Below the pieces are notes generated by a model that saw only the letters and a list, made by a program, of their open reading frames with translations, had not been told where the DNA came from and made no database searches. 64,000 nt of DNA from a virus. Shown piece by piece: positions 721 through 56,206 of this stretch (the stretch's first letter is position 1; each line of letters begins with the position of its first letter). The translations under genes and the position numbers were made by a program. The stretch covers positions 64,001 through 128,000 of IMG/VR virus record IMGVR_UViG_3300045988_166055. One strand, given 5' to 3'.

Positions 721-750
721 GAGCAGCTATAACTTAGCTGCTCATCATTT
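721..750 (+). terminator. hairpin terminator candidate
   Basis: GAGCAGCT-ATAACTT-AGCTGCTC (8 bp) followed by ATCATTTT. Confidence 0.5.
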
Positions 751-751
751 T

Positions 752-769
752 GAACCTTGTATACAAATG
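752..769 (+). promoter_or_regulatory. class B box (GAACCTTGTAT) upstream of tail operon
   Basis: TGAACCTTGTATACAAATGA; one of six near-identical intergenic boxes. Confidence 0.5.
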
Positions 770-19462: not shown

Positions 19463-19483
19463 GAGAACCTTGTATCTTTATGA
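19463..19483 (+). promoter_or_regulatory. class B box
   Basis: GAGAACCTTGTATCTTTATGA; 15-nt identity (ATGAGAACCTTGTAT) with the box at 42231-42245. Confidence 0.5.
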
Positions 19484-27426: not shown

Positions 27427-27429
27427 TAA

Positions 27430-27448
27430 GAATCGTTATATTAAGTAT
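27430..27448 (+). promoter_or_regulatory. class A box
   Basis: GAATCGTTATATTAAGTAT. Confidence 0.5.
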
Positions 27449-27485
27449 CTAACATATCAAAACTTGAATACTAGAGGCTACTAAC

Positions 27486-28052: not shown

Positions 28053-28218
28053 ATATAAAGGTGTAACAATCTATCTTTATTACTATGGGTGTTTTCTTTT
28101 CTACGCTGAAAAGAATAAATATGGGCTAAAGCACGGACGGTGGAAATGGATTAGTTTTTGCAATACAGATGAAGCGGAACAATTCATAGACAAGCATATA
28201 GATACTTTCTGTTGGTGA
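28033..28218 (+). CDS. hypothetical protein (61 aa)
   Basis: ATG after GGAGG SD; overlaps the upstream 3' end. Confidence 0.5.
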   Translation: MPQRSYEYKGVTIYLYYYGCFLFYAEKNKYGLKHGRWKWISFCNTDEAEQFIDKHIDTFCW

Positions 28219-28237
28219 ACCTTATATTTTTATGTGA
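28215..28237 (+). promoter_or_regulatory. class B box
   Basis: GTGAACCTTATATTTTTATGTGA. Confidence 0.5.
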
Positions 28238-28321: not shown

Positions 28322-28726
28322 ATGAGTTACAAGATTACTATTAAGTTCACCAAGCCTGTTAAGGTTGAAGCATCTATTCCTACTTATCCAATTGCCCCTG
28401 AATTTGTTCTGGGTCAGTCTTATGTGGATGAGAAGGCTTTCCGTGACCAGGCAGGCGATACCGCTTATTCCAAGAACATTTGGGAGAAGGGTGAGTTCCT
28501 GATGGCTCAGGACCTGTCTGAGTTCCTAGGTGAAGTTTCTGTCCATCCTGGTGTTGTTCTTGCTTGCAAGTCCGCTATTCTGGCTGCTGAGGCTGCCGAA
28601 GCTTCTTCTGGTGAGAATGCTGGTTATGAGTTCATAACTGATGACTACAAAGACAAGATGCTGTACGAAGAGATCGGTCGTGCTCTTGCCGGTCAGGGAT
28701 TCGAGGTAACTGTCGACCCTACGTAA
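28322..28726 (+). CDS. abundant small virion protein candidate (134 aa)
   Basis: SD GGAGG; same G+C-rich, CTG/AAG-type codon usage as the capsid gene. Confidence 0.65.
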   Translation: MSYKITIKFTKPVKVEASIPTYPIAPEFVLGQSYVDEKAFRDQAGDTAYSKNIWEKGEFLMAQDLSEFLGEVSVHPGVVLACKSAILAAEAAEASSGENAGYEFITDDYKDKMLYEEIGRALAGQGFEVTVDPT

Positions 28727-29425: not shown

Positions 29426-30136
29426 ATGACTATGGATGAAGTAACTGCTCAAGTTGGATTCTTACTAGGCTTTCCTACTAACGAGAATGTAGAAGAGGTT
29501 GATCTAAGGCAAGCAGTATTGATTGCATTTAGAGAACTAAAAAGATACATTCGTCAGTCAGTGGAAAAGACTGTCCCGTTTCAAACTAGAATAGACTTGC
29601 TCAAGCAAGATATCCATACAAACAAAGTTCTCAATGTTCAAGCTGCCTATCCTAGAATAGGCCTTACAATGAGTAACATAGACAGTGGTAATGTTTTCCA
29701 GGTTGCTGCCGCTGTAAACGCCTATAGTACGATAGGCAACACAAGTTCAATCAACATAGATCCTATAATGTCTGAACTTGCAATGGCTCAAGTCCGTAAC
29801 ACAATTTCTACTGATTTTCAATGGAAATATGATCCGTATAATCAAGTAGTTTATGTTACGCACAGAGATCCATTACCTGCAATGGTAACTATACGATATG
29901 TTCCAGATTTGCAGGATGTATCAGAGATTCAAGGAACAACCTGGATTGACTACTTAGTCCGGATGAGCCTAGCATTCGCAAAAATATCGTTAGGCAGATC
30001 TCGGTCAAAATATACAATTGAGGGCTCTAATGTAACACTTGACGGTGATACACTTCTTCAAGAAGCTAACGCAGAGTTAGAAGCTATAAGAGGTGAACTT
30101 GAGCCTAAGAAAAGTAGACTTGTTGTTTTGAACTAA
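29426..30136 (+). CDS. hypothetical virion-module protein (236 aa)
   Basis: SD GAGAGGAGG; context among structural genes. Confidence 0.6.
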   Translation: MTMDEVTAQVGFLLGFPTNENVEEVDLRQAVLIAFRELKRYIRQSVEKTVPFQTRIDLLKQDIHTNKVLNVQAAYPRIGLTMSNIDSGNVFQVAAAVNAYSTIGNTSSINIDPIMSELAMAQVRNTISTDFQWKYDPYNQVVYVTHRDPLPAMVTIRYVPDLQDVSEIQGTTWIDYLVRMSLAFAKISLGRSRSKYTIEGSNVTLDGDTLLQEANAELEAIRGELEPKKSRLVVLN

Positions 30137-33194: not shown

Positions 33195-33323
33195 ATGGAC
33201 GAAAAGATTATTGATCAAATCAATCCAGAAACAACTGCTCCTGTGATTGAGAATGTTGATGACCTTCCCGAAAGTGCTGCTCAAGAGTTCACTGGAGGTA
33301 AGGGAGAAGAGGAGGCTGAGTAA
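33195..33323 (+). CDS. small acidic ORF (42 aa) immediately upstream of the endolysin
   Basis: ATG after TGGAGGT SD; its TAA ends 1 nt before the endolysin ATG; below the track size cutoff. Confidence 0.4.
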   Translation: MDEKIIDQINPETTAPVIENVDDLPESAAQEFTGGKGEEEAE

Positions 33324-33324
33324 T

Positions 33325-34563
33325 ATGCCTAATTACACAAATAGCTCATTAGTTAACTACACTAAAATCAGCCCTATGCAGAGTGGAAGCAGAGTAAATT
33401 CCAGATACAATCCTTCTGGTAAGATTACTGTTATCACTATTCATCATATGGCTGGTAACCTTTCTGTAGAAACTTGTGGAAATGTATTTCAGACAAGAGA
33501 AGCATCCGCGAACTACGGTATTGGTTCTGATGGTCGTGTAGGAATGTATGTAGAAGAAAAGGATAGAGCTTGGACTTCTTCCAGTCCTTCAAACGATTAT
33601 AAGGCAGTTACAATCGAGGTAGCTAACTGTGCATATGGTGATCCTTGGCCTGTTTCTTCTGCTGCATATGAGAAGCTGATCCTCCTTTGCGCAGATATTT
33701 GCAAACGTAATGGAATTGATAAGCTGAACTACACTGGAGACACAACAGGTAACCTTACAATGCACTGCTGGTTTGCTGCTACTGCATGCCCTGGTCCTTA
33801 TCTAAAGGCAAGATTCAGCGATATCGCAAATAGAGTAAATGCTATCTTAGATGCTTCAAAGCCTGATCCGACTCCTGTACCGTCAGGTAATCTAGCTGTT
33901 GGAGATGTAGTTACCTTCGTAGGTGGTTCCCATTATTACAGCTCAGATGCGGCTTCTCCTGCATCTACAGATCTAAAGCCTGGTAAGGCTAAAGTTACAG
34001 CTATTTACAAGAGCGGAAAGCATCCATATCACCTTATTCACACAGATAGCTCAACTTCTGTATATGGTTGGGTAGATGCATCAGCAATTAAGGAGCTGGA
34101 AGAGAAGCCGTCTACTCCGTCAACCGGTTCTTATGATGTTGGAGATGTTGTAAATTTCAAGGGTGGTAATCACTATTCAAGCGCAAATGCTTCTTCTCCT
34201 GCATCTACCGGCCTAAAGGCAGGTCCTGCAAAGATCACGTATAAGGCTAACGGAGCACATCCTTATCACCTTGTTCATACAGATAATCAAACAAGCGTAT
34301 ATGGTTGGGTTGATGCTTCTCAGATCGAAGGCGCTTCTTCAGCACCTTCTGCCCCTTCTGTTGAAACATTCAATAAGGGAGATAAAGTAAAGATCAAGTT
34401 GTCTACAACCAGATGGGTTGGCGGTGCGTCAATTCCTTCTTGGGTTAAGAATAGTCAGCTTTACATTTGTGGATTCAGAGATAGTGATCCTTGCGTCACA
34501 ATCAATTCTGATCTATCAGGTGTAACAGGTGTTCTTAAGACTTCCGATCTTTATCACAACTAA
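33325..34563 (+). CDS. endolysin: N-acetylmuramoyl-L-alanine amidase plus repeated SH3-like wall-binding modules
   Basis: ATG after GAGGAGG; ITIHHMAG...NYGIGSDG...AVTIEVAN...TACPGPYL; two repeats of about 69 aa plus a third related module. Confidence 0.85.
   Translation: MPNYTNSSLVNYTKISPMQSGSRVNSRYNPSGKITVITIHHMAGNLSVETCGNVFQTREASANYGIGSDGRVGMYVEEKDRAWTSSSPSNDYKAVTIEVANCAYGDPWPVSSAAYEKLILLCADICKRNGIDKLNYTGDTTGNLTMHCWFAATACPGPYLKARFSDIANRVNAILDASKPDPTPVPSGNLAVGDVVTFVGGSHYYSSDAASPASTDLKPGKAKVTAIYKSGKHPYHLIHTDSSTSVYGWVDASAIKELEEKPSTPSTGSYDVGDVVNFKGGNHYSSANASSPASTGLKAGPAKITYKANGAHPYHLVHTDNQTSVYGWVDASQIEGASSAPSAPSVETFNKGDKVKIKLSTTRWVGGASIPSWVKNSQLYICGFRDSDPCVTINSDLSGVTGVLKTSDLYHN
33886..34332 (+). 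repeat. tandem coding repeat (two wall-binding modules)
   Basis: 33886-34095 and 34126-34332 encode G..VGDVV.F.GG.HY.S..ASSPAST.LK.G.AK.T......HPYHL.HTD..TSVYGWVDAS.I. Confidence 0.8.
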
Positions 34564-34687: not shown

Positions 34688-35326
34688 ATGAAGAAAATGA
34701 GAATTTCAGCGTTTGTTGTATTTATCATTGGAATGGTCGCTATTATTATTCATATGCTTACTTTGAACACATCTTCTAAGATGGAACCTAAAGATGTAAC
34801 AGCTCCAAAAGAAGATAAGTTATCTACTGAAATAACTAATACTCCTGATAATGATTATCCGGTTGCGCAACTTGTAAATAATGAAAGTAATTTTAATTAT
34901 TCAGTAAATAAATCGAAGTCTGAGTCAGAAATTGATGATATCATTGAACCATTTATCTTACTTACCGAAGAAGAAAAGCGAGACTTTTCTGCACTAGTTT
35001 ATCTAGAAGCTGGAGGGGAGTCTTATGAATGCATGAAAACTGTTGCAAGCGTTATTGTTAACAGAATGATAAACAATGATCTTTCTCTTTACGATGTTAT
35101 ATATGCTACTAATCAGTTTGAGCCTGCTGAAAATATTCCGTACACTGATCCTTCTGAAGAAGCAATACAAGCAGTGAACGAAATTGTTCAGAATGGTCCG
35201 TGCGTTCCTAAAAATGTAACTTTCTTCAGAGCAAGCTACTACCATAATTGGAGCGATCTTATTCAGCCTTACACCGTTATTGATAATACATATTTCTCTT
35301 ACGATGTTAGAATTGAGGTGGATTGA
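34688..35326 (+). CDS. membrane-anchored SleB/CwlJ-family cell-wall hydrolase
   Basis: N-terminal TM (ISAFVVFIIGMVAIIIHML); LVYLEAGGESYECMKTVASVIVNRM...TNQFEP matches the SleB-type hydrolase motif. Confidence 0.7.
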   Translation: MKKMRISAFVVFIIGMVAIIIHMLTLNTSSKMEPKDVTAPKEDKLSTEITNTPDNDYPVAQLVNNESNFNYSVNKSKSESEIDDIIEPFILLTEEEKRDFSALVYLEAGGESYECMKTVASVIVNRMINNDLSLYDVIYATNQFEPAENIPYTDPSEEAIQAVNEIVQNGPCVPKNVTFFRASYYHNWSDLIQPYTVIDNTYFSYDVRIEVD

Positions 35327-39850: not shown

Positions 39851-40327
39851 ATGGGAAACGACGGCCTTGGAAAGAAAGCTGAACAAAAGCTTCGTGTTTG
39901 GTTAGATAGACCTGAAGATGGGTTCAGCTTTGAGAGACTTCCAGATCAGTTATCAGGGTTCTATGGAAGTAAAAATAAATGCGATTTCATAGTTTTCAAA
40001 TCTCCATATATGATTTATCTAGAAAGCAAAAGTACTTGGGAAGATAGATTTGATTTTTCAATGATATCTGATTATCAGTATGAAAGCCTTTTAGATAGAT
40101 CGAAAATAGAAAATGTTTTTGGATATGTAGCAATCTTATTTGCTACATACAAGAGATGCTTTCTTATTGATGTTAATCAAATAGCTAAACTAAAAAGCGA
40201 AGGAAAAAAATCTATCAACATAAATAAGATAGATAAGTGGAATTTCAAATATTCTGAGATTCCTACATTACCAAGCAAAAAGCAGCTACTTGATTATGTG
40301 GGAAACATAGTAGATTTAATCAATTGA
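39851..40327 (+). CDS. RecU-like / PD-(D/E)XK Holliday-junction resolvase candidate
   Basis: FERLPDQ...CDFIVFKSPYMIYLESKST...ISDYQYESL fits the D...E.K RecU layout. Confidence 0.5.
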   Translation: MGNDGLGKKAEQKLRVWLDRPEDGFSFERLPDQLSGFYGSKNKCDFIVFKSPYMIYLESKSTWEDRFDFSMISDYQYESLLDRSKIENVFGYVAILFATYKRCFLIDVNQIAKLKSEGKKSININKIDKWNFKYSEIPTLPSKKQLLDYVGNIVDLIN

Positions 40328-40345
40328 ACCTTATATCGTATTACA
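40325..40345 (+). promoter_or_regulatory. class B box
   Basis: TGAACCTTATATCGTATTACA, 27 nt before ATG 40372. Confidence 0.5.
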
Positions 40346-40371: not shown

Positions 40372-40638
40372 ATGGGTTTTGAATTTGCAACATTCGCAGC
40401 AATTACAGTTCTTGCTTATCTTGTTGGTATCGCCGTAAAGGCTTCTTCACTCGACAGCAAGTGGATTCCTGTAATTGTAGGTGCTTTCGGACTTATCGTT
40501 GGTGTAGCTGCTTTCTACATTGGAACTCCTGAGTTCCCTGCAAACGATCCTATTACTGCTGCTGCAGTTGGCGTCGCTTCTGGGCTTGCTGCAACTGGTA
40601 TCAACCAGGCGGTTAAGCAGCTATCAAGCAAGGAATAA
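40372..40638 (+). CDS. holin-like small membrane protein
   Basis: 88 aa, two or three hydrophobic spans, charged C-terminus (NQAVKQLSSKE). Confidence 0.5.
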   Translation: MGFEFATFAAITVLAYLVGIAVKASSLDSKWIPVIVGAFGLIVGVAAFYIGTPEFPANDPITAAAVGVASGLAATGINQAVKQLSSKE

Positions 40639-40694: not shown

Positions 40695-40788
40695 TACCTC
40701 CTTTCTTTAGGGTAGGCAGGATCTCACGGTCCTGCCTATTCCTATGTTTACTTAAGAATCGTTATTGTAATCATAAGAAAAGGAGGTA
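40695..40788 (+). promoter_or_regulatory. anti-SD / terminator / class A box / SD arrangement
   Basis: TACCTCCTTT (40695-40704) is complementary to AAAGGAGGTA (40779-40788, the SD of ATG 40795); box GAATCGTTATTGTAATC at 40756-40772. Confidence 0.5.
40713..40750 (+). terminator. hairpin terminator candidate
   Basis: TAGGCAGGA-TCTCACGG-TCCTGCCTA (9 bp) then TTCCTATGTTT. Confidence 0.5.
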
Positions 40789-40794
40789 TTCACT

Positions 40795-41691
40795 ATGGCA
40801 GCAACTTATAAGCCGTTTTCTGAATTCAAATATTGGTTCATAAGAGATAATGAAGAAAATGTCAGTGTTTTCAGATCTTCTGATAAGAAGAAGATTGGAT
40901 TCATGACAATTGATCCATCCGATGTAGATGTTTCAATGACAAAAGATAACAAATGGTTTCTTCCTTATCACGAAGCAGTAGTATCTGATGACATCTCAGA
41001 AAATGAAGTTGTTTGTTCCTACAATGACTGGATCAATCGTCCTGAGTACTTTGTAGGCTGTTATAATCAGCCTATCATTGACGGAATGAGCAACTATTCT
41101 AGACGAGAGGTATACATCAATATCCTAAGAGGGTGCTGCTACATTAGAGTTTACAACAATGGAAGAGATCCGGACACATGTCAGGATGCTGTAGATAGAA
41201 TTGTAGCTTGGCTTGACGAAACAGATTTCTTTACAGCACCCGCATCTACTCGATTCCACGAATCGTTTGAAGGTGGTCTTCTTTATCACACTTTGAAAGT
41301 ATACAATCAAATTGTTGATCTTATGAAAGTAACCAAGTTCAGCAAAGTTGGTGTTGCAAGTGCTGCTCTTGTAGCTCTTGTTCACGACTGGTGTAAGATC
41401 AACCTTTACTCTCCATATAAGAAGAATGTAAAGAATCAAGAAAACGGTCAGTGGGAACAGGTAGATGCATATAATAGAGGAAGTTACGAATTTCCTCATG
41501 GTCAGCAGTCTCTTGAAGTAGCAAGATGCTTCTTCAAATTCACCCAGGAGGAAAAGCTTGCAATTACTCATCATATGGGACACTGGTATTGTCATCCTTC
41601 AGAAGAGAGTTGCTTGCAAACATCAAATGAAAGATATCCGCTTGTTCATATGTTGCAGTTTGCTGATCAGCTAGCAATTACCTCTTACTAA
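40795..41691 (+). CDS. HD-domain phosphohydrolase
   Basis: RFHESFEGGLLYHTLKV ... ALVHDWCKI (H...HD signature). Confidence 0.7.
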   Translation: MAATYKPFSEFKYWFIRDNEENVSVFRSSDKKKIGFMTIDPSDVDVSMTKDNKWFLPYHEAVVSDDISENEVVCSYNDWINRPEYFVGCYNQPIIDGMSNYSRREVYINILRGCCYIRVYNNGRDPDTCQDAVDRIVAWLDETDFFTAPASTRFHESFEGGLLYHTLKVYNQIVDLMKVTKFSKVGVASAALVALVHDWCKINLYSPYKKNVKNQENGQWEQVDAYNRGSYEFPHGQQSLEVARCFFKFTQEEKLAITHHMGHWYCHPSEESCLQTSNERYPLVHMLQFADQLAITSY

Positions 41692-41703
41692 AGGATGATA
41701 TAG

Positions 41704-42231
41704 ATGACAGACGCCCAGGAGAAGCTAATAGTTGATAATTATCAACTTGTACATGGATTTGTTCATAAGTATGGCCAATCATTTGGTCATGAATATGATG
41801 AATCTGTACAGATAGCTTCTCTTGGGCTTTGTTATGCAGCTCTAAAGTATGATGAAACAAAATCAAAGTTTTCAACTTATGCTTATCAATGTATGATGAG
41901 AGAATTCTTGAAACTAGAAAGATTGAAGAAAGCAAAGCGGAGAGACTTCTCAACTATTTCAATTCAAACTCCTATTCAAAATGTAAAAGGTGAAGAGTCT
42001 GGTTGTCTTGAGGACATTATTTCATATGATGAATTAGGATTCCAAGAAATAGAAATAAAGGATCAAATCGAATACGCACTGTCTAGATTCAGTGGAAAAC
42101 AATTAGAAATAGTTAAATATTTCATAGAAAACGGAAAATGTAATCAAAAGACTGTAGCTAAATTATTTGGAGTATCTCAATCATACATATCTAGAATACT
42201 TAGAAGGTTCAAAAATCTAATAGAATATTAA
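41704..42231 (+). CDS. phage-encoded sigma-70-family sigma factor
   Basis: Region 2 (DESVQIASLGLCYAALKYDE..FSTYAYQCMMREF) and region 4 HTH (KTVAKLFGVSQSYISRILRR). Confidence 0.85.
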   Translation: MTDAQEKLIVDNYQLVHGFVHKYGQSFGHEYDESVQIASLGLCYAALKYDETKSKFSTYAYQCMMREFLKLERLKKAKRRDFSTISIQTPIQNVKGEESGCLEDIISYDELGFQEIEIKDQIEYALSRFSGKQLEIVKYFIENGKCNQKTVAKLFGVSQSYISRILRRFKNLIEY

Positions 42232-42232
42232 T

Positions 42233-42253
42233 GAGAACCTTGTATACTCATGA
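42233..42253 (+). promoter_or_regulatory. class B box
   Basis: GAGAACCTTGTATACTCATGA immediately after the sigma gene stop. Confidence 0.5.
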
Positions 42254-42283: not shown

Positions 42284-42967
42284 ATGACCCTTTCTGAGGA
42301 CATGAAGAAAATAGCCCAAGACGATATAGAAGAAATCATTGATTGGCTTGAAGATGATGGATACAAAGCCAGTTTAGTTTCAATGGAACTTGATCCTGAT
42401 GAAATTGAAATGGATTTGATTCAAAATGTAAAAGCTGTTTTCAGTGTAAACGGAAAAGAAATCCCGCTTAATTTTTATTATTCAATTAAGACGGAAGCAA
42501 AAGAAATCTACATAAATAGGTCGGATGACGAACTTGCAAACGCTTTGAAGGCAGCATCAGTAAATGTATCTGAATCTAAAAAAATTAAATCAAAAAATAT
42601 TACTGCTGCTAAGATAACAGCTGCAGATGAAGATTTTGAAAGCGATGAATTTGACGAGTCTTTTGACGAGTCTACTTCTGAAGAAGATTCAGACAGCTTA
42701 GCTGATAGTATTGACAGCATTTCTGACAAGGTTGACGATATGCAGGATACTATTGATGATGCTGAAGTCGAAGATGATATTGACATAGATATAGAAAATA
42801 ATATCGACAATCATTATATCGCTGAATGCGAAAGATGTCATGGTATATTTATTTCTTCCGTTGTTGAATCAGATCAGCAGCTTGAAAAAATTCATGGAAC
42901 CTGTCCTCTTTGCGATAGAGATACCGATCAGTATCTAAAATGGACTGTCAAGAAGGTAGAAAAATGA
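42284..42967 (+). CDS. acidic protein with C-terminal zinc ribbon
   Basis: SD AAGGAGG; CERCHG...CPLCDRD. Confidence 0.6.
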   Translation: MTLSEDMKKIAQDDIEEIIDWLEDDGYKASLVSMELDPDEIEMDLIQNVKAVFSVNGKEIPLNFYYSIKTEAKEIYINRSDDELANALKAASVNVSESKKIKSKNITAAKITAADEDFESDEFDESFDESTSEEDSDSLADSIDSISDKVDDMQDTIDDAEVEDDIDIDIENNIDNHYIAECERCHGIFISSVVESDQQLEKIHGTCPLCDRDTDQYLKWTVKKVEK

Positions 42968-43143
42968 AGAGTAAAAAGAAAGGATTTTTAACTTGTGATA
43001 TATGCGGAAAAGACTTCATAAAGGTTTATGATAGCATATATCAGTTTCCTTTCAAAGGTAAAATGTGTCACTTCTGTTCATATACATGTTATAGAGTTGG
43101 GCAAGCGACAAAGGAGAGATTGAAAAATGAAAAAGATGGTTAG
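42964..43143 (+). CDS. small FCS/TRASH-type zinc-finger protein (59 aa)
   Basis: CDICGKDF...CHFCSYTCY; ATGA overlap with the upstream stop. Confidence 0.5.
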   Translation: MKSKKKGFLTCDICGKDFIKVYDSIYQFPFKGKMCHFCSYTCYRVGQATKERLKNEKDG

Positions 43144-43531
43144 CTCATTCCGAAGTGCAATCAAAGCTGATTCAATGAATACAAAGATAACCCAAACTAA
43201 TAAAATTAGAATAGGCGGAAATAATTTCAGAGTGCATACAACAGAATACAATGATGCACCCGATGCCGATGTTATTCAATTATACAATGATTTCTGCGCA
43301 TCCATTTCCATGATTGCACCTTACGATGATGCAGATTACTTCTGGGCAACAATTACAAGAGGAACAATCAAGTATATTCGAGGCGGAAAAGTAAAAGAAA
43401 TTGATTACTACATGAACGCTGATGATATGGACATTGAAAACAATGAATGGGCAAACGAAATAATTGAACAGGTTTGTGTTAGACTGAATCAGTTAAATAA
43501 AAACATTGAACCTAGAATTATTCACAATTGA
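43127..43531 (+). CDS. hypothetical protein (134 aa)
   Basis: SD AAGGAGAG. Confidence 0.6.
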   Translation: MKKMVSSFRSAIKADSMNTKITQTNKIRIGGNNFRVHTTEYNDAPDADVIQLYNDFCASISMIAPYDDADYFWATITRGTIKYIRGGKVKEIDYYMNADDMDIENNEWANEIIEQVCVRLNQLNKNIEPRIIHN

Positions 43532-43541
43532 GGTGAAATTT

Positions 43542-44234
43542 ATGAAGATAATCAAAAAGAGAATATTCTGCTCATTTAACGGTGAGCCTGATCCTACAGG
43601 TCTTTCTGAAGGGTCATTGCGAGATGCACAGAAAGCAAAAACATGGCAAGAAGTTTACAAATTATTTGATAAAATTGTAGACAAATATATGCCTGATGCT
43701 GAAAAGATTGAAAAAGAAGTTTACAATCTTTATGAAAAGAATAAAGGCTTGAAACAGTATCAAGAAGCATATGATCATTGGATTGATGAAGCTGATTTAT
43801 CTATCGAAAACAATGAAGAATACGAAATAGAGAGCTCTGTAGATATTGATGAAGAAACAGAAGATCCTAAATGGATATGTCTTGATATTAAGCATGTAAG
43901 AGATAGCGACGGAATGCTGACTGATTACGCTCTTTACACAACCAAAGACGAAGATAAATATATCTGCATGTTTGGAGATGCAGATGTATATGCTCCAGAT
44001 GAGATGTATGCAGATGCTGAATTTGATACTGAAGATGAAGCGCTTGAATGGTTTGAAAATTATGTTGGGCCTGGAGATGAAGATGATGAAGATGATATAT
44101 ACTCTTCAGAGGAAACTGATGGTGACGAAGATAATGATGATCTAGATCATCCTGATCAAGAGTTTGATTCCGCAGATACTTCAATAAATTCTTCTAAACT
44201 CCCAGCTGTGGGAGATGACATCATATTTATTTGA
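43542..44234 (+). CDS. acidic hypothetical protein; its C-terminus duplicates the N-terminus of 45268-46674
   Basis: ATG after GAGGTG; ends ...LDHPDQEFDSADTSINSSKLPAVGDDIIFI. Confidence 0.6.
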   Translation: MKIIKKRIFCSFNGEPDPTGLSEGSLRDAQKAKTWQEVYKLFDKIVDKYMPDAEKIEKEVYNLYEKNKGLKQYQEAYDHWIDEADLSIENNEEYEIESSVDIDEETEDPKWICLDIKHVRDSDGMLTDYALYTTKDEDKYICMFGDADVYAPDEMYADAEFDTEDEALEWFENYVGPGDEDDEDDIYSSEETDGDEDNDDLDHPDQEFDSADTSINSSKLPAVGDDIIFI

Positions 44235-44254
44235 GTGGGTAGTATGATAACGCC

Positions 44255-44272
44255 TTAACCTTATATCTTATT
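44255..44272 (+). promoter_or_regulatory. class B-like box inside a hairpin
   Basis: TTAACCTTATATCTTATT; flanked by CCTTAACC / GGTTAAGG inverted repeat. Confidence 0.35.
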
Positions 44273-44291
44273 GGTTAAGGGGGAGATAATA

Positions 44292-45293
44292 TTGGTAGGT
44301 ATATATAAAATACAAAACAAAATCAACGGAAAAATTTATATAGGACAATCGGTAGATATAAATAGTAGATTGCAGGATCATAGAAAAAACAGCAGTAATA
44401 CATATTTAAGAAATTCAATTAAAAAATATGGATTATCAAATTTTTCATTTGAAGTAGAAGAAATCTGTGATGAATCAGAATTAGATGAAAGAGAAAAATT
44501 CTATATAGAATATTATGATGCTACAAATCCTGACAAAGGTTATAATGTACAGCTAGGTGGAAAGATATCGGAAGCTGCTAGCGGAGAACATTATAGAAAC
44601 TGGTTAAGTCAATTAGCTAAGAATAGAGCTTCATCGCCAGATTATAAGAATCCTGCAGAAGGTACAACTCTAATAAGTAAAGGCGACATTACTTCTAGAT
44701 GTAAAGTATGCGATTTAGATAAATATCTATCAGAAGGTTGGATCATTGGACCTTCAAACATATGGAGGGAATCGCACAGACATTCGTCTAACATAGAATA
44801 TTTTTCAAATCATAAATTTGTAGGGCCTAAAAACGGATTCTACGGTAAACACCATACAGAAGCTACAAAAGAAAAGATACGTAGAAATATGCCAGATACT
44901 GGTAAAGCTAACAGAGGAAAAAAATTATCTGAGGAGCAGAAGGCTAAGCTTAGAGGACCCAGACCTTCTATATCAGGAGACAAGAATCCTAACTATGGTA
45001 AGCGAGGAGAAAATTCTATAATGCATGGTCGAAGAGTAATAAACAACGGAGTATCTGAAAAACGAATAAATTCAAATGAATTAGATAAATACTTATCTAA
45101 AGGATGGAGTTTAGGCCGTAAACCTTCTGTAAAAGATAACTTAAAACAAGTTGCTTCGAAGGCTAGTAACAATAAGAAGCTACTAAATAATGGGAAAATA
45201 TGCAAATACTTCTATACCGATGAGGTAGAAAATAAAATTAAAGACGGTTGGAAAGTAGGTAGGTTAAATGAAAATATTGAAAATAACTGCTAG
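44292..45293 (+). CDS. GIY-YIG homing endonuclease with NUMOD3-type repeats
   Basis: VGIYKIQNKINGKIYIGQS...R...H; repeated KNPNYGK / GFYGKHH motifs; TTG 44292 lies 6 nt after AAGGGGGAG (the track start 44271 is further upstream). Confidence 0.85.
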   Translation: MVGIYKIQNKINGKIYIGQSVDINSRLQDHRKNSSNTYLRNSIKKYGLSNFSFEVEEICDESELDEREKFYIEYYDATNPDKGYNVQLGGKISEAASGEHYRNWLSQLAKNRASSPDYKNPAEGTTLISKGDITSRCKVCDLDKYLSEGWIIGPSNIWRESHRHSSNIEYFSNHKFVGPKNGFYGKHHTEATKEKIRRNMPDTGKANRGKKLSEEQKAKLRGPRPSISGDKNPNYGKRGENSIMHGRRVINNGVSEKRINSNELDKYLSKGWSLGRKPSVKDNLKQVASKASNNKKLLNNGKICKYFYTDEVENKIKDGWKVGRLNENIENNC

Positions 45294-46674
45294 TGTTGAT
45301 GAAAATGATGTCGAATTAGATAATCCTGAACAAGAATTTACATCAGAAAATACATCAATAAATAAGAATAAGCTTCCAGCAGTTTATCGCTTAATAAATA
45401 TACCCAAATGGTCTGTAGGAATTGATTTTGGTGGTGGAAAATGGGACACCGCAGTAGAGCATATCCGAGATTTAGGTGCAACACTCTGTGTATACGATCC
45501 GTATAACAGAACTGCTCAGCACAACAGAGAAATGCTTAAAACGCTAAAAGCAAACGGCGGAGCTGATTGGGCTGTAAATTCAAATGTTCTGAATGTTATC
45601 AAGGAGCAGGAAGCAAGACAAAGTGTTTTAAGAAACATTTCTAAGATAACTAAATCTGGAGCCCCTATTTATATTACAGTCTACGAAGGTAGAGGAGACG
45701 CAAAGGAAGGTCCAACAAAATCTGGTTACCAGCTTAACAGAAAGACTCAAGATTATCTAGAAGAAATTCAAGAAGTCTTCCCAGATGCAAAGAGAAAAGG
45801 TAAGCTGATCATTGCACATAATGTTCAGTCAGCAAGCTCTTCTACAAATGTTAATTCGTCCGAAAAAGTTCGCCCTATAGATGAATTAAATGAGGTAACA
45901 GATCAAATTAGAGACGACCTGATTCAGAAACTAGTTGATGTTATGTCAGGTACAACTTTTGGATTCTCTAGAAATGAAGCTATTGATTATTCAAGAGTAG
46001 ATATTAGATTTGACGACGATGAAAACAGGATTGAAGTTGAAGTTGGTGCAGAAGTTAGCTACGACGGTCTAATGCGAATTGCTCAAGAGCTTGATCCTAT
46101 AATTCAATCGTATGATCAAGATGCTTACTTTGATGCTGAAGATGCAGGATTGCTTGTCGCAGTTATTCCATACGAGTCATTGAGAAAGCACATGAATGTT
46201 AATTCAGCTGTTGACGTTCCCGAACCTTCATTAGATCCTCCTGAATACGATGATCCTGAGGAAGGTGAAGAAACAGTTGAAGTTGAATGTGACATCAATC
46301 AACTTGAAATAACAGTTGACGAAGACGGATCATGGGAATATCAAAGAGATGATTTCCTTGACGAAATTCTTACTTCCGAGGATGAGCTTACTTCTGAAGA
46401 ATATGATGTATACATTCAGGACAGAAACGGCTTGATTGAAGACTTTGACTCAATTGTAGAGCCTAGCATCCCAGGAGTACCTGGAACTTATTTAATTTCT
46501 TGCCATGTCAAAATGGTTTATGACGTAACAGGCGTAGAGATTGTACGTGAATATCAAGGTAAAGACGAAGACGGTGATCCTATAATTGATGAGGATTACT
46601 ACACCGGAAATGCTGATGTAGAGTTCAACAGAAATGAAAGCTACATAACAAACTTCTATTCAGAAGAAATCTAA
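45268..46674 (+). CDS. class I methyltransferase-like N-terminal domain plus long acidic C-terminal region
   Basis: VGIDFGGGKWD ... CVYDPYN ... NSNVLNVI ... PIYITVYEG resemble SAM-MTase motifs I, II and IV; its start overlaps the endonuclease 3' end. Confidence 0.45.
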   Translation: MKILKITASVDENDVELDNPEQEFTSENTSINKNKLPAVYRLINIPKWSVGIDFGGGKWDTAVEHIRDLGATLCVYDPYNRTAQHNREMLKTLKANGGADWAVNSNVLNVIKEQEARQSVLRNISKITKSGAPIYITVYEGRGDAKEGPTKSGYQLNRKTQDYLEEIQEVFPDAKRKGKLIIAHNVQSASSSTNVNSSEKVRPIDELNEVTDQIRDDLIQKLVDVMSGTTFGFSRNEAIDYSRVDIRFDDDENRIEVEVGAEVSYDGLMRIAQELDPIIQSYDQDAYFDAEDAGLLVAVIPYESLRKHMNVNSAVDVPEPSLDPPEYDDPEEGEETVEVECDINQLEITVDEDGSWEYQRDDFLDEILTSEDELTSEEYDVYIQDRNGLIEDFDSIVEPSIPGVPGTYLISCHVKMVYDVTGVEIVREYQGKDEDGDPIIDEDYYTGNADVEFNRNESYITNFYSEEI

Positions 46675-46682: not shown

Positions 46683-46729
46683 GAATCGTTATAATCAGTG
46701 AAGGAGAAATTCTTCACTGATTATTTTTT
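46683..46729 (+). promoter_or_regulatory. class A box overlapping a terminator hairpin
   Basis: GAATCGTTATAAT; the stem ATCAGTGAAG / CTTCACTGAT (46694-46721) begins inside the TATAAT; followed by TATTTTTT. Confidence 0.5.
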
Positions 46730-46746
46730 ACGGAGGACACATCAAA

Positions 46747-53193: not shown

Positions 53194-53268
53194 TGGGGCG
53201 TAGCCAAGCGGAAAGGCAGTAGACTTTGACTCTATTATTCGCTGGTTCGAATCCAGCCGTCCCAGCCA
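53194..53268 (+). tRNA. tRNA-Gln (anticodon UUG)
   Basis: Acceptor TGGGGCG/CGTCCCA, loop CT-TTG-AC, T arm GCTGG-TTCGAAT-CCAGC, encoded G-CCA. Confidence 0.85.
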
Positions 53269-53469
53269 GTGGTCAATTAGCTATTGACTGATGTCAGAGT
53301 AATCAGCTAACCTGACAAAGAATGAAAATGATCGCTGAAAACTGCTACTAAAGGATTCGTCCTCATTATTCACCTTAAGATAGTGGCTAGTTATTTGTGG
53401 ATTACTAGTTGATGATGATTAGCGTGACAATCTAAGCGGTAAGCTGATGAATAGTTAGGAGGAACATAA

Positions 53470-53853
53470 ATGAAAATTCTTCGTCATCAAAACATAGAAG
53501 GAATGGCGAGAGTTGGATTTACTTCAGATAGCTACGAAGTATACGTCAATACAGACGATGGTGGAAAAATTCCTCACTTTCATTACAGACTGAAAAATGA
53601 TTGGAATAAGTTTCACACATGTATAAAAATTGAAAGTCCTGAATATTTTCATCATACAGGTAAAGAAAGCGTGTTGAATTCTAAACAAATTAGATCGCTC
53701 ATTCGATTTCTTAAGTCATCTGTATCTCTATCACAATATAGTGAAAAATTTTCTAACAACTTTGAATTGATTATTTTTCTATGGAACATAAACAATTCGG
53801 ATGTTATAGTTGATCCTGAAACAAAAATTCCTGATTACTATCAACTAAATTAA
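53470..53853 (+). CDS. hypothetical protein (127 aa)
   Basis: SD TAGGAGG; GGKIPHFHYRL motif. Confidence 0.6.
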   Translation: MKILRHQNIEGMARVGFTSDSYEVYVNTDDGGKIPHFHYRLKNDWNKFHTCIKIESPEYFHHTGKESVLNSKQIRSLIRFLKSSVSLSQYSEKFSNNFELIIFLWNINNSDVIVDPETKIPDYYQLN

Positions 53854-53855
53854 AT

Positions 53856-53877
53856 CCAATCGTTATTAAGTATGTAG
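53856..53877 (+). promoter_or_regulatory. class A box
   Basis: CCAATCGTTATTAAGTATGTAG. Confidence 0.5.
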
Positions 53878-54040
53878 CAGCTAGTAAGCTGTAACATAAG
53901 GAGCTCACAATCCTGCCGAAATATCTTCTAGAATATTTCCGCACAATATAGAAAAGAGTGGGTGGCAAGGAATATGCCAGGAATGATTCTAAGCTTGACA
54001 TGCAAGTACAACCGGGTGAGAAACTAGTCCCGGTAAATAT

Positions 54041-54115
54041 TGTCAATTAGTTTATGAGGTAAAACATTGTAGCTTAAGATACAATAAGTTGGTTCAATTC
54101 CAACATTGACAGCCA
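54041..54115 (+). tRNA. aberrant tRNA-like gene with an 8-nt anticodon loop (UAA or UUA)
   Basis: Perfect acceptor TGTCAAT/ATTGACA + G-CCA; D arm GTTT-ATGAGGTA-AAAC; T arm GTTGG-TTCAATT-CCAAC; anticodon stem TTGTA/TACAA closing GCTTAAGA; 3-nt variable region. Confidence 0.55.
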
Positions 54116-54234
54116 TCGGTCATTGTTGACTGACGCCCACCGAATCTGCTATCTTAGATCATCAGTAGCAGATGCAGTTTTCTAGTTCTCTTTTCTGTTC
54201 ATCGAACGTGTTGAAAATAAAGAGAATAATATAT

Positions 54235-54326
54235 GGCGCGATACCGAAGTGGTCATAACGGAGCGGTCTTGAAAACCGTAGGCGGTGATGAGCCGTCCGT
54301 GGGTTCGAATCCCACTCGCGCCGCCA
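54235..54326 (+). tRNA. tRNA-Ser (anticodon UGA), class II
   Basis: Acceptor GGCGCGA/TCGCGCC, loop CT-TGA-AA, long variable arm, T arm GTGGG-TTCGAAT-CCCAC, G-CCA. Confidence 0.85.
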
Positions 54327-54549
54327 TGCCTTTTCATTCAGCTGACATTAGATTGTCAAATTGATGAAAGTGAAACCAACTATGCTGGCAGGTTGTCGAC
54401 GGGTTGAAGAGCCGTAGAGTCTAAACTATTCTCCTCTATTCTAGAAAGAGTCGGAAAGCTAGGCCCCGTAGTAGCAGCCGAAAAGTATCCTAAAACGATA
54501 GGCGTTAAAAAATGTTTTATAGGTGACAGCCCGGAAAGACGGGCATTCT

Positions 54550-54645
54550 CATCTGCTAGAACAATGGTAGTTCAGATAAGTTTATGCTTATTCCGTGTCT
54601 GTTGGTCAATCAGACATTATCTCGGTTCGAATCCGAGGCAGGTGA
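54550..54645 (+). tRNA. atypical class-II-like tRNA look-alike 1 (UAU-type loop, no encoded CCA)
   Basis: Acceptor CATCTGC/GCAGGTG; D arm GAAC-AATGGTA-GTTC; hairpin ATAAG-TTTATG-CTTAT (6-nt loop); extra arm GTCTG-TTGGTCAAT-CAGAC; T arm CTCGG-TTCGAAT-CCGAG. Confidence 0.4.
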
Positions 54646-54649
54646 CAAA

Positions 54650-54977
54650 TGTCTACTGGTCACCATCTACATACGACAATCAAAACTGCATAGGAGATGG
54701 AATTGGCAACGGCAGCCATGATAAGTGAAGCGATGTTCGAGTCATCAACCTGATCCTGTTCGACTCAGGCAGGGCATGGTGCAAAACTTATCAAGAGGAA
54801 CTAAGTACCTGCCTCGCTTCGGATAGCAAAGAAGGCGTTAGTAGTAATCGAAAAACTACTCGCGGTTACAGGGAGGGAGCGGCGTTATAGGTAAACCTCC
54901 TGGGTGTTCTGCTATCGTGCACCTTAGAAAGGCGAAGCTTTTCAGTTAGGACTAATCCGGCCAGATAGCAAAAATAT
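54650..54977 (+). ncRNA. ORF-free, G+C-rich structured spacer (candidate stable RNA)
   Basis: No ORF in the track; several local hairpins; lies between the tRNA look-alike and tRNA-Gly. Confidence 0.3.
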
Positions 54978-55051
54978 GCGGATATAGTGTAACGGTAACA
55001 TGCGACTCTTCCAAAGTCGTGTTGCGGGTTCGAGTCCCGTTATCCGCTCCA
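54978..55051 (+). tRNA. tRNA-Gly (anticodon UCC)
   Basis: Acceptor GCGGATA/TATCCGC, loop CT-TCC-AA, T arm GCGGG-TTCGAGT-CCCGT, T-CCA. Confidence 0.85.
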
Positions 55052-55069
55052 TAGAAGGAGGTGACAAAT

Positions 55070-55405
55070 ATGTCTGTTTATAAATGCCCAGTTTGCGGAG
55101 GAAGAGGATTTGTTACTTGCGGATTCTATTCAAGTCAAACATACGATGGAAGCTCGGTAACTAATTACAATTCAACTGAAGTTTGTAGAAGCTGTAATGG
55201 TAGAGGAATTATATTTGATGAATTCTTAGGATCAACTTCAAATAGTATTCATAGATATTGCAGTAATTGTGAAATGAACGATGGTATGGTGTATCCATCG
55301 TATCCTCCTAAATACAGATGTACTTTATCAGGTAATTTCAATGAAGGAACGCATACATGTAATCTAGATGATATTTTGTCAAAGGAAAATAACCAATCTG
55401 AATAA
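55070..55405 (+). CDS. DnaJ-type CxxCxGxG zinc-finger protein
   Basis: ATG 55070 after GAAGGAGG (3 nt after the tRNA-Gly CCA); CPVCGGRG ... CRSCNGRG. Confidence 0.6.
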   Translation: MSVYKCPVCGGRGFVTCGFYSSQTYDGSSVTNYNSTEVCRSCNGRGIIFDEFLGSTSNSIHRYCSNCEMNDGMVYPSYPPKYRCTLSGNFNEGTHTCNLDDILSKENNQSE

Positions 55406-55449
55406 GTTGATAATCGGTAGGGCGCTGCGGTGTGCTTGACCGTGTTCTC

Positions 55450-55483
55450 CCGTCCGGGTGTTGGCGCATCCGGACGGCTTTTT
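55450..55483 (+). terminator. rho-independent terminator
   Basis: CCGTCCGG-12 nt-CCGGACGG then CTTTTT. Confidence 0.75.
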
Positions 55484-55518
55484 CTATCTAGTAAATTATT
55501 AACGAATGATTAAGACTA

Positions 55519-55553
55519 TTGACTTTTCATAAGAATCGTTATATAATATGTAC
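55519..55553 (+). promoter_or_regulatory. class A box with a canonical -35
   Basis: TTGACT (55519-55524), 17 nt spacer containing AAGAATCGTTA, then TATAAT (55542-55547). Confidence 0.65.
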
Positions 55554-55600
55554 ATAAGTCAGCCAACACATCAAAAAGCTTCAAAGCTAAGGAGGAAAAA

Positions 55601-55915
55601 ATGAACGGATACATTATCAAAGCTACATACCTCACAGGTCCGCATAAAGGAGCATCTTATTTCCTTCAAAAAGGCGGATATGTAACATCCGATCCCGATG
55701 ACCAGTGGTCAGATAACTGCTACAAGACAGAAAACATCTGCAAGTCAATTTGCATGAAGCTTGAAAGAAGCAACATGGCTGAAAACGTAGTAGAGAAAAG
55801 AACAAGAGAGTATAGATCTCAAAAAGGGTACAATGTATCCGATTTCATGATCTACGAATTGATGAAATATGAACCGTATTTTGTCAAAACTGTTCACAAT
55901 TCGGATGTTTTCTAA
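55601..55915 (+). CDS. hypothetical protein (104 aa)
   Basis: SD AAGGAGG. Confidence 0.6.
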   Translation: MNGYIIKATYLTGPHKGASYFLQKGGYVTSDPDDQWSDNCYKTENICKSICMKLERSNMAENVVEKRTREYRSQKGYNVSDFMIYELMKYEPYFVKTVHNSDVF

Positions 55916-55928
55916 GGAGGTATTCACA

Positions 55929-56201: not shown

Positions 56202-56206
56202 CAATC

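What the first reader, a model, noticed from the sequence alone, without database searches (positions are those of the whole stretch)
41704..42253. Phage sigma factor and a second box (GAGAACCTTRTAT) in front of late-type genes
Six copies of GA(G)AACCTT(G/A)TAT lie upstream of the following: the tail chaperone/tape-measure operon (752), the fibre operon (19463), the abundant small virion protein (28215), the holin-like gene (40325), the gene just after the sigma factor (42233), and in weaker form the GIY-YIG gene (44255). Each is followed by N4-6 and ATG(A/T). Two copies share 15 identical nucleotides. The sigma-70-family gene (41704-42231) is itself downstream of a class A box at 40756. This suggests a cascade: class A promoter, then phage sigma, then class B (late) promoters. 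Phage-encoded sigma cascades of this kind are known from SPO1-type phages.
Basis: inference. Interest (0 to 1): 0.65.

Follow-up and report, generated by a model that had tools for sequence, protein, structure and literature searches.

The report
Late-gene promoter box and phage sigma factor
An uncultured gut phage of about 145 kb carries a small sigma factor and a conserved, promoter-like box in front of its head, tail and lysis genes, but relatives that lack the sigma gene at that place keep the box, so a link between the two is plausible and not shown.

Summary
ORF 41704-42231 is a real, minimal sigma-70-family protein made of sigma2, a linker and sigma4. GAACCTTRTAT occurs 5 times exactly (0.15 expected), with a sixth weaker copy. 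All copies are on the coding strand and in the 4.3% of the sequence that is intergenic.

The box is kept at orthologous sites in relatives whose proteins are only 35-65% identical and whose flanks have diverged. It has no -35 element. It reads [G/T]AACCTTNTAT, followed by a T and then a purine 14-15 nt after the A of ACCTT. Ribosome-binding sites place the start of transcription at or just before that purine, so the box itself must hold the -10-like part. It precedes the tail, head, connector and holin genes. A second box, AATCGTTA-N7-TGTA, has the same geometry and precedes tRNAs, replication genes, homing endonucleases and the sigma operon.

The proposed cascade is only partly supported. The sigma gene sits at the same place in four divergent lineages. 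Several other lineages have no sigma there yet keep both boxes, in one case exactly where the sigma gene would end. Whether those phages carry a sigma elsewhere could not be settled. This is a new member of a known kind of system (SPO1, T4, phiEco32), and the sigma-box link is untested.

The parts
41704..42231 (+). Minimal sigma-70-family factor, 175 aa. Sigma2 is about aa 3-80, an extended 3.2-like linker covers aa 81-109, and sigma4 covers aa 110-174. It has no region 1.x or pro-sequence and no region 3.0/3.1 domain.
   Evidence: Pfam and NCBIfam matches. PDB sequence matches to SigB, SigA, SigH, SigF and SigK. AF2 model with pLDDT 93 and Foldseek matches to sigma chains. Orthologues at the same place in L011 (44% identity), L256 (40%) and L234 (34%).
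42233..42251 (+). Class B box directly after the sigma stop codon: GAGAACCTTGTATACTCATGA. It precedes the acidic zinc-ribbon gene 42284-42967.
   Evidence: Invariant in 8 close relatives. Kept in L011, L256 and L234, and in the sigma-less L217 and L214.
40324..40342 (+). Class B box overlapping the stop codon of the RecU-like gene, 46 nt before the holin gene (40372-40638).
   Evidence: Variants sit at the same place in L011 (TAACCTTATTTAT), L256 (TAACCTTTTAT), L234 (GAACCTTAAATTAT) and L214 (TAACCTTACTTAT).
750..768 (+). Class B box behind a hairpin (721-743) and a short T run. It heads 825-1607 and the 1146-aa gene of the tail module.
   Evidence: Identical in the close relatives L027, L099 and L120.
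19463..19481 (+). Class B box 2 nt after the stop codon of 18343-19461. It heads the head module (19496-24151, including the prohead-protease-like gene and the major head protein).
   Evidence: Orthologous boxes with unrelated flanks in L167 (AGAACCTTGTATACTTATGA) and L169 (TGAACCTTGTATACTGATGG).
28215..28233 (+). Class B box 105 nt before 28322-28726 and the connector genes (29426-30136 is adaptor-like).
   Evidence: Orthologous boxes in L213 (CAACCTTATATTTTTACATGATAGG) and in L169 at 16250 and 16555.
44254..44272 (+). Weaker class B box (TAACCTTATAT) in front of the free-standing GIY-YIG homing endonuclease. The likely start codon is TTG at 44292, behind the ribosome-binding site AAGGGGGAG.
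   Evidence: The endonuclease gene is missing in L012 and L011, where the flanking ORFs form a single gene.
40757..40775 (+). Class A box (AATCGTTAT...) behind the terminator 40710-40741. It heads the operon made of the 298-aa gene and the sigma gene.
   Evidence: Kept in L011, L012 and L256, and as the variant ATTCGTTAT in L217 and L234.
40795..41691 (+). A 298-aa gene of unknown function, co-transcribed with the sigma gene. It is present in all lineages, with or without the sigma gene.
42284..42967 (+). Acidic protein with a C-terminal zinc ribbon. It is the first gene behind the post-sigma box and is conserved in every lineage.

Best explanation
The class B box is a late-type promoter without a -35 element, built as one block. 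It reads [G/T]AACCTTNTAT, then about five bases, then a T and a purine 14-15 nt after the A of ACCTT. That span corresponds to about -17 to +1, with the -10-like part (TTNTAT or TATNNT) inside the box and initiation near the conserved purine.

The box sits directly behind the stop codon of the preceding gene, mostly without a terminator. It would add late transcription to the tail, head, connector and holin units, to the gene after the sigma gene, and to mobile genes that have landed in the genome.

The most likely reader is host core RNA polymerase carrying the phage's own 175-aa minimal sigma (sigma2-linker-sigma4). That sigma is made from the class A unit 40757-42231. This would make it the last step of a programme like that of SPO1: sigma-A-type early promoters, then class A, then class B. 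Promoter recognition would rest on a single element, as it does for T4 gp55 and phiEco32 gp36.

Shown: the box is real and conserved, it has no -35 element, it lies before late-type genes, and the sigma is a genuine sigma. Inferred: it acts as a promoter, the start site is where stated, transcription is late, and this sigma reads it.
For: Box statistics and position. Across 15 family loci ACCTTNTAT occurs 53 times on the + strand and 4 times on the - strand, and 32 of the 53 lie in the 10.8% of sequence that is intergenic.

Conservation at orthologous sites against diverged flanks.

Logo of 26 non-redundant sites: no information upstream of -2, T at +14 in 20 of 26 sites, and a purine at +15 in 23 of 26.

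Ribosome-binding sites right after the box leave no room for a separate -10 further downstream: window 19489-19494, L169 11110 (ATGGAGG), and L256 7238 and L136 9429 (ATGAAGGAGG).

In relative L169 the 21-kb structural module has only class B boxes. The class A boxes inside the window's structural region go with inserted genes that L169 lacks.

Sigma. It lies in the class A unit with no terminator before it. It is held at the same place in four lineages at 34-44% identity. It belongs to a large family of short sigmas of 165-190 aa rather than being a fresh copy of a host gene.

Precedents: phiEco32 gp36 reads a single AATGTA element centred at -11.5 (PMC12276001). In SPO1 the late sigma gp34 is a middle gene (PMC13401047).
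Against: There are no transcript data, so promoter function, timing and start site are all inferred.

Several syntenic relatives (L213, L214/L215, L217) have no sigma gene at this place, or anywhere in the 20-40 kb held for each. They keep class B and class A boxes that cannot be told apart from those of sigma-bearing relatives.

No sigma of this family turned up on their contigs in two pattern scans or in one profile search.

The sigma has a normal-looking sigma4 domain, but the box offers no -35 element for it to bind.

Nothing distinguishes 'the sigma reads class B' from 'the sigma reads class A'. Both boxes share one geometry.
Confidence: 0.45

Rival explanations
1. The boxes are promoters, but something other than this sigma reads them. 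Candidates are another phage-encoded specificity factor or RNA polymerase encoded outside the window, or a host holoenzyme remodelled by a phage protein. In this reading the 175-aa sigma serves class A promoters or some other target set.
For: Sigma-less relatives keep both boxes, including a perfect box exactly where the sigma gene would end. Contiguous promoters without a -35 element, of about 18 nt, in two classes that share one geometry and differ only in an 8-nt block, resemble the promoters of phage-encoded polymerases (the resemblance comes from general knowledge of T7-type promoters). Only 64 kb of a genome of about 145 kb is visible.
Against: No polymerase or second sigma was seen in the window or in about 40 kb of any relative. 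The sigma gene keeps its place next to a class B box in four divergent lineages.
Confidence: 0.25
2. The sigma is an accessory, sporulation-type sigma that reprogrammes a spore-forming host, as reported for the SigF/SigG-like sigmas of Bacillus phages. In this reading it has nothing to do with the boxes.
For: Its best family matches are SigK, SigE, SigF and SigG. One database source names a member of its cluster 'sporulation-specific sigma factor'. Its distribution among relatives is patchy. A relative lacking the sigma at this place carries a SpoIIID homologue. Sporulation-like phage sigmas are dispensable and alter host sporulation (PMC9429907), and gut phages carry sporulation regulators (PMC10294663).
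Against: It scores far below the curated cutoffs for every sporulation sigma (67.8 against 252 for SigK). It lacks the pro-sequence, region 1.2 and region 3.0/3.1, which the bacterial SigK-like P0043 has. It belongs to a large clade of sigmas of 165-190 aa. It has been kept at one position through divergence down to 34% identity.
Confidence: 0.12
3. The box is not a promoter. It acts on the RNA, as a processing or stability site at operon junctions, or it is the binding site of a DNA-binding regulator.
For: Most boxes abut the stop codon of the upstream gene without a terminator, so read-through transcripts would carry them. Strand specificity fits an RNA element as well as a promoter.
Against: The layout is typical of a promoter: a TA-rich -10-like block, then a pyrimidine-purine step about 7 nt later. 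The box at 752 follows a terminator-like hairpin. Class A, with the same geometry, sits behind strong terminators and directly before tRNA genes, where a promoter is needed.
Confidence: 0.1

Closest known systems
Bacillus phage SPO1 sigma cascade (host sigma-A, then gp28 for middle genes, then gp34 with gp33 for late genes)
   Same: Both are large lytic Firmicute-type phages with small phage sigmas lacking parts of sigma-A. In both, the late sigma gene belongs to the preceding temporal class, and each class has its own promoter consensus (PMC13401047). Relatives here also carry canonical sigma-A promoters, which gives three classes.
   Different: SPO1 middle and late promoters are bipartite, with -35 and -10 elements (general knowledge). 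The boxes here have no -35 element. SPO1 was not among the tblastn matches at E <= 1e-3; the only annotated matches were sigma genes of two phages, Bacillus phage Goe8 (family Herelleviridae) and Staphylococcus phage f2b1, at 28-29% identity. Only one sigma was found here, and no gp33-like partner was identified.
E. coli phage phiEco32 gp36 with its cofactor gp79
   Same: A small phage sigma of the sigma2 plus sigma4 type reads middle and late promoters that consist of a single element around -10 (AATGTA centred at -11.5; PMC12276001). Class B (TTGTAT) and class A (ATGTA) both contain the same TGTA core.
   Different: The host phylum differs, and no sequence relationship was shown. The box here extends a further 5-6 conserved bases upstream (AACC). 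No gp79-like cofactor was identified.
T4 late transcription (gp55 with gp33 and the sliding clamp; promoter TATAAATA)
   Same: Late promoters lack a -35 element and are defined by one short block at -10 (general knowledge; gp55 is cited as the essential late sigma in PMC9429907).
   Different: gp55 has no sigma4 domain and needs gp33 and the clamp. The sigma here has a confident sigma4 domain.
Sporulation-like sigma factors of Bacillus phages (SP10 g120, SPO1 gp2.21, Eldridge g169, Fah/Wbeta)
   Same: The best profile matches are to SigK, SigE, SigF and SigG. The host is likely a Firmicute, possibly a spore-former, judging from an amidase with a weak GW-domain match (E 0.0077, below Pfam's cut-off) and a cell-wall hydrolase of Pfam family Hydrolase_2.
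   Different: The sigma here is much shorter, falls below all the equivalog cutoffs, and is fixed in position inside a phage operon next to a phage-specific box.
ECF (group 4) sigma factors
   Same: The two-domain sigma2-sigma4 architecture matches. TIGR02937 is passed, and the box contains GAAC, as ECF -35 elements do.
   Different: No conserved -10 lies 16-17 nt after GAAC. At several sites the ribosome-binding site lies too close to the box to leave room for one. No anti-sigma gene was recognised next to it.

Membership tests
Sigma-70 family | Region 2 (sigma2: core binding and -10 recognition) | tested here: met
   Pfam Sigma70_r2 at E 1.6e-9, above its cutoff. The FSTYAY motif is conserved. 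The AF2 model and Foldseek matches agree.
Sigma-70 family | Region 4 (sigma4 helix-turn-helix) | tested here: met
   The Pfam Sigma70_r4 match is weak (E 0.0039, below cutoff), but HTH_28 is above its cutoff. The protein aligns to region 4 of SigB and SigK. Helices 110-174 are modelled with confidence.
Sigma-70 family | Binds core RNAP and directs promoter-specific initiation | not testable with these tools
   This needs biochemistry.
Sporulation sigma SigK/SigE/SigF/SigG (NCBIfam equivalogs) | Score above the curated family cutoff, at full length | tested here: not met
   67.8 bits against 252 for SigK, 53 against 339 for SigE, and 48.5 against 321 for SigF. The N-terminal ~50 residues and region 3.0/3.1 are missing.
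ECF (group 4) sigma with its cognate promoter | A bipartite promoter: an AAC-containing -35 element and a -10 element 16-17 nt downstream | tested here: not met
   Nothing is conserved 16-17 nt after GAAC. The ribosome-binding site lies too close to the box at 19465, at L169 11110 and at L256 7238.
SPO1-type phage sigma cascade | The phage sigma gene is expressed from an earlier promoter class than the one it would serve | tested here: met
   By position only. The sigma lies in the unit headed by class A box 40757, behind terminator 40710-40741.
SPO1-type phage sigma cascade | A distinct consensus in front of late (structural and lysis) genes | tested here: met
SPO1-type phage sigma cascade | The sigma and its promoter class occur together in related genomes | tested here: inconclusive
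   They occur together in the window lineage, L011, L234/L238 and L256. The boxes occur without a sigma in the held parts of L213, L214/L215 and L217. The rest of those genomes could not be read.
SPO1-type phage sigma cascade | Temporal separation of the classes and dependence of late transcription on the sigma | not testable with these tools
   This needs time-resolved transcript data or in vitro transcription.
Single-element (-10-only) promoters of phage sigmas (T4 gp55, phiEco32 gp36) | No -35 element, and one conserved block around -10 | tested here: met
   The logos of 26 class B and 36 class A sites carry no information upstream of the box. The register relative to the start site is inferred.

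The most novel reading that the evidence does not exclude
Both boxes belong to one unusual promoter design: an 8-9-nt class-specific block (AACCTTNT or AATCGTTA), followed at a fixed distance by ATG(A/T), with no -35 element. This design is older than the sigma gene and independent of it. If so, promoter class in this phage family is set by something other than a classical sigma. That could be an unrecognised polymerase or specificity subunit, with the sigma as a later add-on.
Probability: 0.2. Interest if true: 0.7.

Novelty: new member of a known kind. Interest (0 to 1): 0.45.

Why it matters
Transcription programmes of large uncultured gut phages of Firmicutes are almost unknown. This work yields two sharply defined, family-wide promoter-like boxes and a candidate reader. 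Together they give a ready-made way to split these genomes into temporal modules. They also help to spot inserted mobile genes, which carry their own box, and to design in vitro tests.

If the sigma does read the box, it adds a Firmicute example of promoter recognition by a sigma2-sigma4 factor without a -35 element. If it does not, the family hides an unrecognised specificity factor.

Tried and rejected
1. ECF-type reading (GAAC as a -35 element). Rejected: nothing is conserved 16-17 nt downstream, and ribosome-binding sites lie too close to the box for a separate -10.

2. Extended -10 of host sigma-A (TGn or TRTG). Rejected: the register does not fit. Canonical TTGACA-N17-TATAAT sites are rare in the window.

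3. Whole-collection scan for GAACCTTRTATNNNNATGA. It was useful only because it returned further pieces of relatives, including the divergent L129.

4. Sigma relatives at about 40% N-terminal identity on gut contigs of 130-215 kb (L137-L166, L172-L208). These are unrelated phages, often with two sigma genes. They show no synteny and no boxes.

5. De novo k-mer search for a shared motif in those unrelated sigma-bearing phages. Nothing was found.

6. Covariation between sigma divergence and box sequence. None is visible: the box core is the same with sigmas of 34-100% identity and with no sigma.

7. Gain or loss of the sigma gene from trees of four neighbouring genes. The trees are star-like and disagree, so nothing can be concluded.

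8. Walking along a lineage-C contig. The last collection scan, using a sigma-A promoter repeat of L213, gave only 10 kb of new sequence, with a SpoIIID homologue and no sigma.

9. Matching contig lengths in a profile search of 5.8 billion proteins. Only 120 of 1222 hits were listed and none matched. The two candidates followed up were unrelated phages.

10. Search for cultured relatives. None is present in 50,697 phage records.

11. Group I intron around the GIY-YIG gene. Rfam gave no hit.

Full report
WHAT THE WINDOW IS

The window is 64 kb at 37% G+C, with almost all genes on the + strand. The gene order is:
- a tail module (1-19.4 kb; two amidase or lysin-domain tail proteins and a baseplate wedge protein);
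- a head module (19.5-24.2 kb; a prohead-protease-like gene and the major head protein);
- an HNH homing endonuclease and a few unknown genes;
- connector genes;
- an amidase endolysin and a second cell-wall hydrolase;
- an SNF2 helicase and a RecU-like resolvase;
- a holin, a 298-aa gene and the sigma gene;
- an acidic zinc-ribbon protein;
- a GIY-YIG endonuclease;
- UvrD and SbcC-like genes, SHMT, 17-18 tRNA genes and an NAD-dependent ligase.

No deposited phage is related at the DNA level, and none is closer than about 37% identity for the helicase protein. Close relatives are contigs of about 145 kb from human gut metagenomes.

THE SIGMA FACTOR

ORF 41704-42231 (175 aa) is a genuine sigma-70-family protein. 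Region 2 scores above Pfam's cutoff. The protein as a whole passes NCBIfam's sigma70-ECF superfamily model. Its best partial alignments are to SigK (positions 50-219 of 235), SigE, SigF/SigG and SigB, all far below the family cutoffs.

Compared with a bacterial SigK-like homologue (P0043), it lacks the N-terminal pro-sequence and region 1.2, and most of region 3.0/3.1. The AlphaFold2 model is confident (pLDDT 93.3). It shows a helical sigma2 (aa 3-80), an extended linker and a helical sigma4 (aa 110-174). Its PDB neighbours are sigma chains in initiation complexes.

A profile search of 1.84 billion representative proteins shows that it belongs to a large family of sigmas of 165-190 aa. Some members sit in Oscillospiraceae genomes.

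THE BOX IN THE WINDOW

GAACCTTRTAT occurs five times exactly, against 0.15 expected. The sixth copy, TAACCTTATAT, lies at 44256. All six are on the coding strand. All six fall in the 4.3% of the coding part that is intergenic, 15-105 nt before the next annotated start codon. Two copies share the 15-mer ATGAGAACCTTGTAT.

The genes behind the boxes are:
- 825-1607 plus the 1146-aa gene (tail module by position);
- 28322-28726 plus the connector genes;
- the holin gene;
- the acidic zinc-ribbon gene after the sigma gene;
- the GIY-YIG endonuclease gene.

THE BOX IN RELATIVES

Close relatives (sigma 78-95% identical) keep the box, but their whole intergenic regions are conserved, so they say little. 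The informative relatives are distant ones whose orthologous proteins are 35-70% identical.

- L011 (sigma 44% identical) has GAACCTTGTATACT after the sigma gene and TAACCTTATTTAT before the holin gene, with unrelated flanks.
- L256 (sigma 40%) has GAACCTTTTATACTAATGA after the sigma gene and TAACCTTTTAT before the holin gene.
- L234/L238 (sigma 34%) have (C/T)ACCTTTTATTGTTGTATGA after the sigma gene and GAACCTTAAATTAT before the holin gene.
- L167 and L169 keep the box at the orthologue of site 19465. L169 and L213 keep it at the orthologue of site 28217.

Across 15 family loci (326 kb, with some redundancy) ACCTTNTAT occurs 53 times on the gene strand and 4 times on the other strand. Of the 53, 32 lie in the 10.8% of sequence that is intergenic.

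A logo of 26 non-redundant sites carries no information upstream of position -2, counted from the A of ACCTT. It reads [G/T]AACCTTNTAT a n T n a T R, with T at +14 in 20 of 26 sites and a purine at +15 in 23 of 26. There is therefore no -35 element.

Several sites have the Shine-Dalgarno sequence starting at +15 to +22: ATGGAGG in L169, ATGAAGGAGG before TnpB genes in L256 and L136, and AAAGGA at 19489 in the window. The transcript must begin at or before about +15. The box itself must therefore contain the -10-like part, and the ECF-type reading (GAAC as -35) is excluded.

THE SECOND BOX

AATCGTTAT occurs 11 times in the window against 0.78 expected, always on the + strand. The shorter core ATCGTTAT occurs 14 times on the + strand and once on the - strand.

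Family-wide, over 36 non-redundant sites, it reads A-ATCGTTA-T-w-d-w-n-n-r-TGTA. The T, G, T and A at +14 to +17 are strongly conserved, and again there is no -35 element. Both classes therefore share one geometry: a class-specific block at positions 0-8 and (A)TG(T/A) at positions 13-16.

Class A boxes sit behind strong terminators (24213, 40745, 55479). They lie directly before tRNA genes, the HNH endonuclease, the UvrD unit and the operon of the 298-aa gene and the sigma gene.

In L169 the 21-kb structural module has only class B boxes. The class A boxes inside the window's structural region (24248, 26083, 27432) belong to genes that L169 lacks. This is the best available evidence that class B is the structural, late class.

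Some relatives (L213, L216, L223) also carry textbook sigma-A promoters. The family therefore probably runs three classes, as SPO1 does (PMC13401047).

THE LINK BETWEEN THE SIGMA AND THE BOX

In favour of a link:
- The sigma gene lies in a class A unit.
- It is immediately followed by a class B box.
- It has been kept at that position in four divergent lineages.
- A small phage sigma reading a single -10-type element has precedents. phiEco32 gp36 reads AATGTA centred at -11.5 (PMC12276001), and T4 gp55 is another case.

Against a link:
- In L213, L214/L215 and L217 the 298-aa gene is followed directly by the box and the acidic zinc-ribbon gene, with no sigma gene in between.
- In L217 the stop codon of the 298-aa gene overlaps a perfect TTGAACCTTGTATACT.
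- A sigma profile finds nothing in these loci at E <= 10.
- Two pattern scans of IMG/VR and a profile search listed no sigma on any of the nine contigs of these lineages.
- Both box classes are as well preserved there as in sigma-bearing lineages.

I could read only 20-40 kb of those genomes, which reach up to 165 kb, so a sigma elsewhere is not excluded. Trees of neighbouring genes are star-like and do not show whether the sigma gene was gained or lost. One of these lineages encodes a SpoIIID homologue under a sigma-A promoter.

RIVALS

- A different reader for the boxes: another phage factor or a phage polymerase encoded outside the window.
- An accessory, sporulation-type role for the sigma (PMC9429907, PMC10294663).
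- A function other than a promoter for the box, on RNA or as a regulator site.

The sporulation reading is weakened by four facts: the protein is truncated, it scores far below the equivalog cutoffs, it belongs to a large clade of short sigmas, and its position is fixed. The non-promoter reading is weakened by the promoter-like layout and by class A, which has the same geometry and sits where promoters are required.

VERDICT

The box is very likely a late promoter without a -35 element, shared by a family of uncultured gut phages. The cascade through this sigma is a reasonable hypothesis, modelled on SPO1, T4 and phiEco32. It is untested and is weakened by relatives that keep the box without the sigma gene. 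This is a new member of a known kind of system, of moderate interest.

Noticed in passing
window 24247, 26082, 27431, 31751, 40757, 46684, 48973, 52765, 53858, 55534, 56896, 58308, 58431, 61133: The class A box AATCGTTA-N7-TGTA is family-wide and found almost only on the + strand. It has no -35 element and shares its geometry with class B. It lies before tRNA genes, replication genes, the HNH endonuclease and the sigma operon. It probably needs its own, unidentified reader.
   Followed up: partly
window 46685-46730; L234 10544-10600; L256 15500-15560: The class A box before the gene upstream of UvrD is followed immediately by a strong hairpin and a T run. The hairpin includes the conserved TGTA region. 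The layout is kept in distant relatives and may be a leader attenuator or an autoregulatory site.
   Followed up: no
window 43506-46674: The GIY-YIG/NUMOD3 homing endonuclease (44292-45293) splits a gene that is single in L012 (653 aa) and L011 (803 aa). The two halves repeat about 20 aa at the junction (..EF.S..TSIN..KLPAV). Rfam finds no intron. The endonuclease carries its own weak class B box.
   Followed up: partly
window 24278-28052: An HNH homing endonuclease (class A box in front) and three unknown genes lie between the major head gene and the connector genes. This block is absent from relative L169, where only 1.6 kb separates those genes.
   Followed up: partly
L256 7238-8518; L136 9429: An IS605-type TnpB gene is inserted between the RecU and holin genes in two relatives. 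In both, a class B box lies immediately before its ribosome-binding site (AACCTTATATTATAATGAAGGAGG).
   Followed up: no
L260 3612-3866 (- strand), contig IMGVR_UViG_3300045988_099217: A relative without the sigma gene at the usual place encodes a SpoIIID homologue (Pfam E 1.4e-22). The gene lies downstream of a canonical, repeated sigma-A promoter and a few kb upstream of the tail module.
   Followed up: partly
window 53194-60892: There is an array of 17-18 tRNA genes. One has an undetermined anticodon (54041-54115). tRNA-Ile(tat) is unusually long at 95 nt (58628-58722). Rfam calls an extra weak tRNA at 60824-60892. Several of the tRNA genes have a class A box about 29-30 nt upstream.
   Followed up: no
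window 57949-57983: A sigma-A-like promoter (TTGACT-N17-TATTAT) has a spacer containing a class-B-like core (GAACCTTTCATAT). It lies upstream of tRNA-Glu. At 55519 a perfect TTGACT-N17-TATAAT overlaps a class A box.
   Followed up: no
window 42284-43143: A very acidic protein with a C-terminal zinc ribbon (CxxC...CxxC) and a 67-aa zinc-finger protein (weak zf-FCS match) follow the sigma gene. The acidic protein is present in every lineage and always sits behind a class B box. It is a candidate transcription cofactor or DNA mimic.
   Followed up: no
L173-L207 (for example L179 at 3293-3799 and 10001-10243): A separate group of gut phage contigs, most of 140-170 kb, carries two sigma-like genes about 6-7 kb apart. 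They show no synteny with this family and none of its boxes.
   Followed up: partly
window 12768-13973, 13985-15670, 33247-34563, 34688-35326: Four cell-wall-hydrolase genes are present: two amidase or lysin-domain proteins in the tail module, an Amidase_2 endolysin with a weak GW-domain match (E 0.0077, below Pfam's cut-off), and a cell-wall hydrolase of Pfam family Hydrolase_2. The endolysin lies in a class A unit, while the holin gene has a class B box.
   Followed up: no
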